Positions 1 to 1,019 of a stretch of DNA of 1,019 nucleotides are shown here, in pieces; the first letter of the stretch is position 1, and every line of letters starts with the position of its first letter. Below the pieces are notes generated by a model. That model worked only from the letters and a program-made list of their open reading frames with translations, did not search any database and was not told where the DNA came from. This stretch comes from Naegleria gruberi. Its lineage: Eukaryota. The position numbers were made by a program, and so were the translations under genes. The stretch is taken from assembly GCA_000004985.1 (NCBI GenBank), contig GG739613.1; one strand, given 5' to 3'.

Positions 1-580
1 ATATCAGTTCCACAACTCCAGTGTGTGAATTAATTTTTTCCATAATTTGTTTTTCTCCTATTTCTTCATCGTTTAAGTTGTTTCTATTAAATTTTACCTT
101 CTCGGCCACTTCAATACCATTTAACCAAGCTTTGTACACCCCAAAGCCAAGTACTTCGTCTGTACGAGTTATTGTTGGAACTGTTTCAAAAGTTTTGATT
201 TTTCTTGGTATTAATTGAATATTAGGTAAAGTATGAGCAACCAGTTCAGATGTTGTGTAGATAATGTATTTATCTTCAGGGGAAAATTGAGGTAATTCTA
301 CAAATAATTCCAATAATTGTTCGTGAATAGCTTTTATGGGAGGCCTTTCCTTTGGATCTTGATTAATGCAACGAACACAAATTTCAAACAACTTTTTCGA
401 CATGTCAGAAGTTAAACAGGGGAAATTATGTTGAAGTGTTTCTTCTAACTGGGATACATTGGATTGCAAAGATTTAATAAAATCATGGCCACAAAGAAGT
501 TCAATCATTGTTACACCAAAGCTGTAAACATCAATCTTCGATATTTCAGAATACCCTAAATCATATTTAACTTCTGGGGG
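1..580 (-). CDS. Partial exon continuing the kinase gene. It covers the end of kinase domain 1 (subdomains VIII to XI), a linker, and the start of a second kinase-like N-lobe. The gene continues beyond the left edge of the window.
   Basis: The same frame is open for 193 codons with no stop (PPEVKYDLGYSEISKIDVYSFGVTMIELL...CINQDPKERPPIKAIHEQLLELF...TDEVLGFGVYKAWLNGIEVAEKVKFNRNNLNDEEIGEKQIMEKINSHTGVVELI). Subdomain IX is D-V-Y-S-F-G-V and subdomain XI is DPKERP at plus 341..358. Further on there is a Gly-loop-like LGFGVYKA (plus 128..151), a VAEK lysine motif (plus 98..109) and an alphaC/beta4-like EEIGEKQIMEKINSHTGVVELI. Confidence 0.85.
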
Positions 581-616
581 CTAAAATGGATAGTAAAATA
601 AATCAAAATAACTTAC
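581..616 (-). other. Putative 36-nt spliceosomal intron (GT-AG), in phase 0 and a multiple of 3 long, containing an in-frame TAG.
   Basis: On the minus strand it reads gtaagttattttgatttattttactatccattttag, with a canonical GTAAGT donor and a pyrimidine-rich tract ending TTTTAG. It is more AT-rich than the flanking exons. It carries an in-frame stop (TAG at plus 581..583). Removing it joins GTRLYL to PPEV and recreates the kinase subdomain VIII spacing GT-x-x-Y-x-(A/P)PE. Confidence 0.8.
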
Positions 617-1019
617 CAAATACAGTCGAGTACCAAAGTGTGATGAATTACTTATGTCACCTTCAACAATAAAATCAAAGTCACATAGTTTCACGTCATT
701 AAATAAATTCATACCAGCTATCTCTATCGTGTTAACTAAAATATTTGCTGGCTTAATATCACAATGACTAATATTCATTTTGTGCATAAATGTTAAAGTT
801 TCACTAATTTTCACCTGAGTATATAATATTTGCCACAATTTTCCAAAGTGATTTCTCCCAAAATCTGCTATTTGCGAATGGTTAAGAGAATGATCCATCA
901 ACTCCATGAATATGTGGTTTATGCCATCCTCAGATTCATAATGATGTAATATTTCAACTATACCAGGATGTTCACTGATTTTTTTGTAGAGCTCTAAATC
1001 TATGAAAGCAGTGAAAGCT
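617..1019 (-). CDS. Partial exon of a eukaryotic-type Ser/Thr protein kinase gene (kinase subdomains III to VIII); the 5' end of the gene lies beyond the right edge of the window.
   Basis: Minus-strand frame with codons starting at plus 1018 is open for 134 codons (AFTAFIDLELYKKISEHPGIVEILHHYESEDGINHIFMELMDHSLN...HFGTRLYL). It contains the catalytic loop HCDIKPANILV (plus 743..766, HRDLKPxN-type), the Mg-binding motif DFD (plus 674..682, a DFG variant) and the activation loop GTRLY. The upstream subdomain III/IV-like LELYKKISEHPGIVEIL is in the same frame, so the M at 907 in the ORF track is internal and not the start codon. Confidence 0.9.

What the first reader, a model, noticed from the sequence alone, without database searches (positions are those of the whole stretch)
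1..1019. Tandem kinase-domain architecture with an internally duplicated motif
One uninterrupted frame encodes the C-terminal two thirds of a kinase domain. After a linker of about 50 aa it then encodes the beginning of a second kinase N-lobe. The second copy's alphaC/beta4 segment KINSHTGVVELI (plus 1..40 region) matches KISEHPGIVEIL in the first domain (plus about 930..965) at 6 of 12 identical positions, and 4 of the remaining 6 are conservative changes. This indicates an intragenic duplication of the kinase domain, not two unrelated domains. The second Gly-rich loop is degenerate (G-F-G-V-Y, with no third glycine), so domain 2 may be a pseudokinase or a regulatory domain, as in dual-kinase proteins. 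Dual or tandem kinase proteins are uncommon and are often signalling or immune hubs.
Basis: seen in the sequence. Interest (0 to 1): 0.7.

Follow-up and report, generated by a model that had tools for sequence, protein, structure and literature searches.

The report
Naegleria gene fragment with two kinase domains
This 1-kb scrap of the amoeba Naegleria gruberi's genome encodes most of one protein kinase domain followed, in the same reading frame, by the start of a second related one; this is a real but fairly ordinary multi-kinase gene, and the rest of it lies off the contig.

Summary
The window is a whole 1019-bp unplaced Naegleria gruberi scaffold. Its minus strand carries the NCBI model 'predicted protein, partial' (P0001, 100% identity).

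The frame is not uninterrupted. There is one TAG at 581-583, inside a 36-nt GTAAGT...TAG intron (581-616). P0001 also splices this intron, and removing it restores GTRLYL|PPEV.

Domain 1 (1018-314) is a clear protein kinase: Pfam Pkinase 2e-29, profile positions 49-259 of 263, with HCD, Asn and DFD present.

The last 101 aa get no Pfam or PDB sequence hit on their own. They do align to residues 113-206 of a single-kinase N. gruberi paralogue (P0017 = XP_002674560, BLASTP E=7e-10). In P0017 that stretch is a pre-kinase segment plus the N-lobe. Three further results agree:
- a generic kinase HMM places the tail on beta2-beta3-alphaC-beta4 (1 of 5000 shuffles scores as high);
- an AlphaFold model has beta-beta-beta-helix topology;

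So the tandem-kinase reading holds. Unit 2 keeps the beta3 Lys and alphaC Glu but lacks a canonical GxGxxG loop. Its catalytic core is off the contig, so pseudokinase status cannot be tested.

Multi-kinase proteins are frequent among the database hits. This is a new member of a known kind, of low interest.

The parts
617..1018 (-). Exon segment 1. Kinase domain 1 from alphaC/beta4 (KISEHPGIVEIL, 947-982) through the catalytic loop HCDIKPANILV (734-766) and DFD (674-682) to GTRLYL (617-634). The frame is open to the contig end, so the N-terminal about 48 profile positions (Gly loop, beta3 Lys) are off the contig.
   Evidence: Translation; Pfam Pkinase 2e-29, profile 49-259/263; 36% identity to P0017 199-436, E=8e-36; motif coordinates.
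581..616 (-). 36-nt spliceosomal intron, GTAAGT...TTTTAG, phase 0. It contains the only in-frame stop (TAG, 581-583).
   Evidence: The NCBI/JGI model P0001 reads GTRLYLPPEV across it. Removing it restores the G-T-x-x-Y-x-x-P-E spacing, which aligns without a gap to GTLGYMAPE of P0017. Intron GC is 0.19, against about 0.32 in the exons.
314..580 (-). Exon segment 2a. C-lobe of kinase domain 1: PPEV (569-580), DVYSFG (515-532), KERP (341-352), ending at ...HEQLLEL.
   Evidence: Pfam match ends at spliced residue 221-223; alignments to P0017 and to MKK6.
161..313 (-). Inter-domain segment of about 51 aa. It is homologous to the pre-kinase segment of the single-kinase paralogue (QFSPEDKYIIYTTSELVAHTLPNIQLIPRKI ~ P0017 113-143). 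It has no stop and no Met.
   Evidence: BLASTP of tail against P0017, E=7e-10. This part alone scores 70, z=10.2, 0 of 2000 shuffles. phmmer E=3.4e-5.
2..160 (-). Start of kinase domain 2 (N-lobe, beta1 to beta4). It has a shortened Gly-rich loop LGFGVYKA (128-151), VAEK with the beta3 Lys (98-109), the alphaC Glu (53-55) and KINSHTGVVELI (2-37). It is cut by the contig end.

Best explanation
The window is a fragment of one Naegleria gruberi protein-coding gene on the minus strand, with one 36-nt intron. Its product contains at least two consecutive units of a small Naegleria-specific Ser/Thr protein-kinase subfamily. Each unit is a pre-kinase segment of about 45 aa followed by a eukaryotic protein kinase domain.

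Shown:
- Unit 1 is seen from alphaC to its C-terminal end. It carries the residues needed for catalysis that can be seen: HCD catalytic Asp, Asn, and the Mg-binding Asp of DFD.
- Unit 2 follows directly in frame, with no stop and no start codon between the units. It is seen only up to beta4.
- Unit 2 keeps the ATP-anchoring beta3 Lys (VAEK) and the alphaC Glu.
- Its Gly-rich loop is reduced to G-F-G. Depending on the alignment this is four residues shorter than in the paralogue, or one residue shorter with the first two glycines replaced.

Inferred:
- Unit 1 is an active Ser/Thr kinase.
- Unit 2, with a shortened phosphate-binding loop, binds ATP poorly or differently and acts as a regulatory or scaffold partner of unit 1, as in other kinase/pseudokinase tandems.
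- The arrangement arose by duplication or fusion of paralogous units long ago, since no DNA-level similarity is left.
For: - Identity of the locus: P0001, 'predicted protein, partial [Naegleria gruberi]', 100% identical, longest contig 1019 bp.
- Single coding frame: 1 stop in 339 codons against 19-40 in the other frames. P(no stop in 193 codons) is about 1e-7, and P(no stop in the 51-codon linker) is about 0.014, from base composition. G is enriched at codon position 1 in all parts, including N-lobe 2.
- Intron.
- Domain 1: Pfam 2e-29; PDB best matches MKK6 and Nek7 at about 1e-13 to 4e-14.
- Unit 2: the exhaustive HMMER search returns P0017 with its best stretch on query 96-193. P0017 is XP_002674560, 'protein kinase [Naegleria gruberi]', with Pkinase at 156-431. 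Tail against P0017 113-206 gives E=7e-10. The pre-kinase and N-lobe halves are each significant separately, z about 10.
- Conserved G, A-x-K and E columns.
- Independent generic kinase HMM, built without the Naegleria paralogues.
- Both halves of the window map onto one paralogue as [199-436][113-206].
Against: - Pfam and PDB sequence searches with the tail alone find no kinase.
- The Foldseek PDB search is not significant: best E=0.96, although that hit is the MLK1 kinase.
- No full-length orthologue or longer contig was found. A complete second domain, and expression of the fused product, are therefore unproven.
- The sequence sits on a tiny unplaced scaffold.
- The closest C-lobe relative, P0024, ends in a low-complexity tail, not in a second kinase.
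Confidence: 0.8

Rival explanations
1. Decaying gene relic: a non-functional remnant of duplicated kinase genes on a repeat-like unplaced scaffold. On this view the TAG and the Gly-loop deletion are disabling lesions.
For: - In-frame TAG at 581-583.
- Four-residue gap in the Gly-rich loop relative to P0017.
- 1019-bp orphan scaffold with only a partial gene model.
- No orthologue in 1.8 billion representatives apart from one paralogue.
Against: - The TAG sits in a canonical GTAAGT...TAG unit whose length is a multiple of three, and removing it restores the activation-segment motif exactly.
- Otherwise there are 327 codons without a stop or frameshift in DNA of 32% GC, where other frames have a stop about every 8-18 codons.
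- Catalytic residues of domain 1, and the Lys and Glu of domain 2, are intact.
- Codon-position composition looks coding throughout.
Confidence: 0.1
2. Assembly or cloning chimera: two separate paralogous kinase genes joined artificially in a scaffold built from one or two reads.
For: The scaffold is very small and unplaced. The two halves each resemble the same paralogue more than they resemble each other.
Against: The junction is in frame. It lies exactly where one unit ends (…EQLLEL) and where homology to the pre-kinase segment of P0017 begins about 10 residues later. No repeat or composition break marks a joint. A random joint would keep the frame only one time in three and would rarely fall on a domain boundary.
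Confidence: 0.05
3. Two adjacent, separately expressed kinase genes in a head-to-tail array, not one polypeptide.
For: Kinase paralogues often lie in arrays. P0017 and P0024 are single-domain proteins.
Against: There is no stop codon after domain 1 anywhere in the frame. There is no Met between the end of domain 1 and the beta3 strand of domain 2; the first Met is in alphaC. The P0001 model also reads through the junction.
Confidence: 0.03
4. The downstream 101 aa are not a kinase N-lobe but an unrelated C-terminal extension, and the 6/12 match is chance.
For: No Pfam hit at E<=10. PDB phmmer hits are ribosomal protein L31 and others, none a kinase. The internal match has E=0.021 only. Foldseek is not significant.
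Confidence: 0.02

Closest known systems
XP_002674560.1 / D2VMW9_NAEGR, 'protein kinase [Naegleria gruberi]' (P0017, 452 aa)
   Same: Same organism and same kinase subfamily. It is 36% identical to domain 1 over the kinase core and 34% identical to the linker plus N-lobe 2. Shared signatures are VAEK for the beta3 strand, DFD in place of DFG, EKIN-x-x-TG-x-VE at alphaC/beta4, and the pre-kinase segment QF...Y..Y...EL.A......Q..PRK.
   Different: P0017 has one kinase domain, an extra 110-aa N-terminal region, an intact GKGGYG loop, and ends 16 residues after the kinase domain. The window's product runs straight on into a second unit, and that unit has a reduced Gly-rich loop.
Kinase-pseudokinase tandems of animals (JAK family JH2-JH1; GCN2) and dual active kinases (RSK/MSK)
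   Same: Two protein-kinase folds in one polypeptide. The working model is that one domain regulates the other (established knowledge; the pseudokinase definition is in PMC13519141).
   Different: No sign of FERM-SH2 or other accessory domains in the window. Domain 1's best solved relatives are MKK6, Nek7 and MST (E 1e-13 to 4e-14). JAK/TYK2 and GCN2 appear only at about 1e-9. The order here would be active-looking domain first and atypical domain second, which is the opposite of JAK. The origin is independent, since the nearest relative is a Naegleria paralogue.
Plant tandem kinase proteins (WTK1/Yr15, RPG1, Rwt4 and others)
   Same: Architecture of two kinase or pseudokinase domains joined by a short linker, with no other domains needed. 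They are thought to arise by duplication or fusion of kinase genes (PMC6170490, PMC8761531).
   Different: The plant proteins are plant-specific immune receptors. Nothing links the Naegleria gene to them beyond generic kinase similarity: Erigeron multi-kinase hits at 35-36% identity over the C-lobe only. No immune role can be inferred for an amoeba gene from this.
Multi-kinase array proteins in other eukaryotes (P0013 with 10 domains; P0014 from a chytrid with 5; P0048 from Gigaspora with 4; P0063 with 3)
   Same: Repeated kinase units in one ORF. The window's tail gives weak matches to the N-lobes of internal units of P0063 and P0048, and those alignments are collinear from the preceding C-lobe.
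   Different: Only 25-30% identical and from unrelated lineages. They rank high because scores from several domains add up, not because of orthology.

Membership tests
Eukaryotic protein kinase domain (Pfam PF00069): domain 1 | Profile HMM match above the curated gathering score | tested here: met
   103.3 bits against a cut-off of 31.7, E=2e-29, profile positions 49-259/263.
Eukaryotic protein kinase domain: domain 1 | Catalytic loop H-x-D-x-K-x-x-N, Mg-binding Asp of DFG, and APE-type activation-segment end | tested here: met
   HCDIKPAN (734-766), DFD (674-682; Asp kept, Gly replaced by Asp as in P0017), GTRLYLPPE after splicing.
Eukaryotic protein kinase domain: domain 1 | Gly-rich loop and beta3 Lys | not testable with these tools
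   These lie upstream of window position 1018. The contig ends there and no longer copy was found.
Eukaryotic protein kinase domain: domain 2 | Direct profile HMM or sequence match of the region to kinase models | tested here: not met
   No Pfam family at E<=10. No kinase among PDB phmmer hits at E<=10. A home-built generic kinase HMM run with --max gives 9.4 bits at the right model positions, reached by 1 of 5000 shuffles.
Eukaryotic protein kinase domain: domain 2 | Homology to the N-lobe of a protein that itself passes the kinase model | tested here: met
   Tail 6-101 aligns to P0017 113-206, E=7e-10. P0017 has Pkinase at 156-431, E=2.3e-34. The N-lobe part alone has z=10.1.
Eukaryotic protein kinase domain: domain 2 | beta3 Lys (VAIK) and alphaC Glu | tested here: met
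   VAEK Lys (tail K69, window 98-100) and Glu (tail E84, window 53-55) fall in invariant columns of an 11-sequence alignment and on the corresponding HMM positions.
Eukaryotic protein kinase domain: domain 2 | Canonical GxGxxG phosphate-binding loop | tested here: not met
   LGFGVYKA against LGKGGYGTVFKV in P0017. This is a 4-residue gap, or a 1-residue gap with G1 and G2 replaced.
Eukaryotic protein kinase domain: domain 2 | N-lobe fold (beta1-beta2-beta3-alphaC) | tested here: inconclusive
Tandem (multi-)kinase protein | Two kinase domains encoded in one continuous ORF or polypeptide | tested here: met
   There is no stop and no Met between the domains. The frame is open from 580 to 2, and the P0001 model reads through the junction. 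Whether the second domain is complete cannot be tested, because the contig ends.
Pseudokinase (domain 2) | Loss of at least one of VAIK Lys, HRD Asp, DFG Asp (definition in PMC13519141) | not testable with these tools
   The Lys is present. The HRD and DFG regions of domain 2 lie beyond window position 1. The degenerate Gly loop alone does not meet the definition.
Plant TKP / JAK / RSK families | Specific relationship (orthology or shared accessory domains) to these tandem-kinase families | tested here: not met
   The nearest relative is a single-domain Naegleria paralogue. The best solved relatives of domain 1 are MKK6, Nek7 and MST, with TYK2 and GCN2 only at about 1e-9. Plant hits match the C-lobe only.

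The most novel reading that the evidence does not exclude
The contig is a piece of a Heterolobosea-specific multi-kinase protein, possibly an array of more than two units like the 3-10-domain proteins seen among the hits. In it, an active kinase is followed by a unit with a truncated phosphate-binding loop that acts as a non-catalytic regulatory or decoy domain. This would be an independent invention of the kinase-pseudokinase tandem in an early-branching protist lineage, together with a conserved, so far undescribed pre-kinase segment that forms the inter-domain linker.
Probability: 0.2. Interest if true: 0.35.

Novelty: new member of a known kind. Interest (0 to 1): 0.2.

Why it matters
The gain is modest. 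It corrects and extends a public gene model: 'predicted protein, partial' is in fact a kinase followed by a second kinase unit. It adds a tandem-kinase gene to the 265 predicted protein kinases of N. gruberi (figure quoted in PMC9928731). It also shows that a domain missed by Pfam can be recovered through a lineage-specific paralogue. If the second unit proved to be a regulatory pseudokinase, it would be one more independent origin of that design. The search itself shows that multi-kinase proteins are common in eukaryotes, so a specialist would not be surprised.

Tried and rejected
- Pfam on the 101-aa tail at E<=10: nothing.
- PDB phmmer on the tail at E<=10: only L31, AQ2171 and JetD noise.
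- Word-indexed protein search with the tail: no candidates.
- Word-indexed search with the spliced 327 aa: only the self model P0001 plus distant generic kinases.
- Word-indexed search with P0017: no further family members.
- Attempts to extend the contig all failed: the look-up of encoding contigs on P0001, P0017 and two window ORFs, and a metagenome scan where 96 pattern matches gave no confirmed relative.
- Foldseek against PDB: not significant.
- Rfam: no RNA family.
- Repeat search: no DNA-level duplication between the two units.
- A ciliate-type genetic code (TAG=Gln) was considered for the single TAG. It was rejected because the organism is Naegleria, the TAG ends a canonical GTAAGT...TAG intron, and reading through would insert 12 residues into the GT..Y..PE motif.
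- A second intron starting at AEK|GTAAAA, where model P0001 stops, was considered. It was rejected because homology to P0017 continues in frame across it.
- Literature search for 'tandem kinase' plus Naegleria: no paper. The Naegleria genome paper itself is not held.

Full report
**What the window is.** A protein search with the spliced minus-strand translation returns a 215-aa entry, P0001, named 'predicted protein, partial [Naegleria gruberi]'. It is 100% identical, and its longest known contig is 1019 bp. The window is therefore an entire small unplaced scaffold of the N. gruberi assembly. GC is 0.32. All attempts to extend it failed.

**Checking the observation.** Minus frame 1, starting at +1018, has one stop in 339 codons. 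The other five frames have 19-40 stops each. From base composition, the chance of 193 stop-free codons is about 1e-7, and of a stop-free 51-codon linker about 0.014.

The frame is not 'uninterrupted', however. A TAG lies at 581-583. It ends a 36-nt element, GTAAGTTATTTTGATTTATTTTACTATCCATTTTAG (616-581), with canonical splice signals and 19% GC against about 32% in the flanks. Removing it joins GTRLYL to PPEV. That restores the G-T-x-x-Y-x-x-P-E activation-segment motif, which aligns without a gap to GTLGYMAPE of a paralogue. The public model P0001 uses the same splice.

They lie at 947-982 (domain 1) and 2-37 (domain 2). On its own this match is marginal: BLASTP E=0.021, and 27 of 2000 shuffles reach the same Smith-Waterman score.

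**Domain 1.** Pfam Pkinase matches at 103.3 bits (E=2e-29) over spliced residues 8-221, profile positions 49-259 of 263. The following are all present:
- HCDIKPANILV (734-766)
- DFD (674-682)
- PPE
- DVYSFG
- KERP

The best solved relatives are MKK6, Nek7 and MST-type Ser/Thr kinases, at E 4e-14 to 1e-10. So this is a generic Ser/Thr ePK with no confident group assignment. Its Gly loop and beta3 Lys are off the contig.

**Is the downstream region a kinase N-lobe?** Direct tests say no:
- no Pfam family even at E<=10;
- no kinase among PDB phmmer hits at E<=10;
- nothing from the word-indexed search.

The decisive result came from the exhaustive HMMER search of 1.84 billion representatives with the exon-2 translation. 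Apart from the self hit, one protein, P0017, has its best stretch on query 96-193, which is the linker plus tail. P0017 is XP_002674560.1, 'protein kinase [Naegleria gruberi]', 452 aa, with a single Pfam kinase domain at residues 156-431, profile positions 4-259.

The 101-aa tail aligns to P0017 113-206 at E=7e-10 with 34% identity. Domain 1 aligns to P0017 199-436 at E=8e-36 with 36% identity. The window's ORF is thus [P0017-like 199-436] followed by [P0017-like 113-206], which means two consecutive units.

Splitting the tail shows that both halves are significant on their own:
- the pre-kinase part scores 70, z=10.2;
- the N-lobe part scores 76, z=10.1;
- 0 of 2000 shuffles reach either score.

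Supporting lines:
- MAFFT with ten kinases places the tail on the N-lobe, with invariant columns at G55, A67, K69 and E84. These are the Gly-loop Gly, the A-x-K and the alphaC Glu.
- I built an HMM from 481 kinase domains of the fetched hits, excluding P0001, P0017 and P0162. It aligns tail 56-101 to 'vykg..kvavk...eieilk..kHpnivkll' at 9.4 bits, reached by 1 of 5000 shuffles.
- Weak phmmer matches fall on N-lobes of internal units of other multi-kinase proteins, P0063 and P0048.
- An AF2 model (pLDDT 70) has strands 45-53, 56-61 and 64-69 and helix 79-95.
- Foldseek was not significant.
- The model depends on an alignment of kinases, so I count the fold evidence as corroboration only.

**Anatomy of unit 2.**
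- The 'linker' (161-313) is a conserved pre-kinase segment, not a spacer.
- The Gly-rich loop reads LGFGVYKA where P0017 has LGKGGYGTVFKV. This is either a 4-residue deletion or a 1-residue deletion with the first two glycines replaced. Either way there is no GxGxxG.
- The beta3 Lys (VAEK, a family signature shared with P0017) and the alphaC Glu are kept.
- Everything from beta5 onward is beyond the contig end.
- By the standard definition, a pseudokinase lacks the VAIK Lys, the HRD Asp or the DFG Asp (PMC13519141). Pseudokinase status therefore cannot be decided here.

**One gene or two?** There is no stop after domain 1 and no Met before the alphaC helix of unit 2. Model P0001 reads through the junction. 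Codon-position composition is coding-like throughout. P0001 stops at ...VAEK, where a GT follows, but homology to P0017 continues in frame, so read-through is better supported. A chimeric joint is unlikely because the junction is in frame and falls on the unit boundary, with no repeat or composition break.

**Duplication or fusion?** The two units share no DNA-level repeat. In the 48-nt comparable segment they match at 27/48 positions, and at 7/16 third codon positions. Over the 16 comparable residues the tail matches P0017 at 9, domain 1 matches P0017 at 7, and the two units match each other at 6. The units are paralogous members of one subfamily. A recent intragenic duplication is not supported, and an old duplication or a fusion of paralogues cannot be told apart with so little overlap.

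**Comparison with what is known.** Two kinase folds in one chain are well known: JAK JH2-JH1, GCN2, RSK/MSK, and plant tandem kinase proteins (PMC6170490, PMC8761531). In the exhaustive search, many top hits are multi-kinase proteins:
- P0013, 2911 aa, 10 kinase stretches;
- P0014, from a chytrid, 5;
- Erigeron P0015 and P0022, 5 and 6;
- Gigaspora P0048, 4;
- P0063, 3.

They rank high through summed domain scores, not orthology, but they show the architecture is not rare. The nearest true relative is a single-domain Naegleria paralogue, so the tandem here is a lineage-specific instance. No paper linking tandem kinases and Naegleria was found. N. gruberi is credited with 265 predicted protein kinases (PMC9928731).

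**Mechanism.**
- Shown: one ORF; an intact-looking catalytic core in unit 1; an N-lobe in unit 2 with Lys and Glu kept and a reduced Gly loop.
- Inferred: unit 1 is an active Ser/Thr kinase. Unit 2 has altered nucleotide binding and modulates or scaffolds unit 1, by analogy with other tandems. This part is untested.

**Verdict.** The tandem-kinase reading is essentially right, though it needs a different evidential basis and several corrections. It is a new member of a known kind, poorly annotated in the public record, and of low general interest (0.2).

Noticed in passing
window 581-616 (minus strand): A very short (36-nt) phase-0 GTAAGT...TTTTAG intron with 19% GC interrupts the activation segment. 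Because its length is a multiple of three, its only tell-tale in the translation is a single TAG.
   Followed up: yes
window 98-778 (extent of public model P0001): The public N. gruberi model starts at an internal Met (MNISHCD, 776-778) and stops at ...VAEK (98-100). The open frame and the kinase homology run to both ends of the contig (1018 and 2). The record carries no kinase annotation.
   Followed up: partly
window 161-289; P0017 residues 113-146: A conserved pre-kinase segment (QF..(E/D).Y(I/V)(I/V)Y...EL(V/I)A......Q..PRK) precedes the kinase domain in both the window's unit 2 and the paralogue. It has no Pfam family and its role is unknown.
   Followed up: partly
window 674-682 and 98-109; P0017: Subfamily signatures shared with P0017: DFD in place of DFG, and VAEK in place of VA(V/I)K. 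The Asp at the DFG-Gly position is unusual for active kinases. The pseudokinase review notes a DLD in POMK (PMC13519141).
   Followed up: no
P0013 (2911 aa, ENA assembly, contigs up to 801 kb): An unnamed protein with 10 Pfam kinase-domain stretches and a weak N-terminal SH2 hit (E=0.005). It is a strikingly long array of kinase domains from an unidentified eukaryote.
   Followed up: no
P0024 (193 aa, ENA contig of 2018 bp): The closest relative of the window's C-lobe (46% identity, sharing FPCLT.D...KL and DPK.RPP). It ends in a low-complexity Ser/Lys/Asn-rich tail instead of a second kinase, so the tandem arrangement is not universal in this subfamily.
   Followed up: partly
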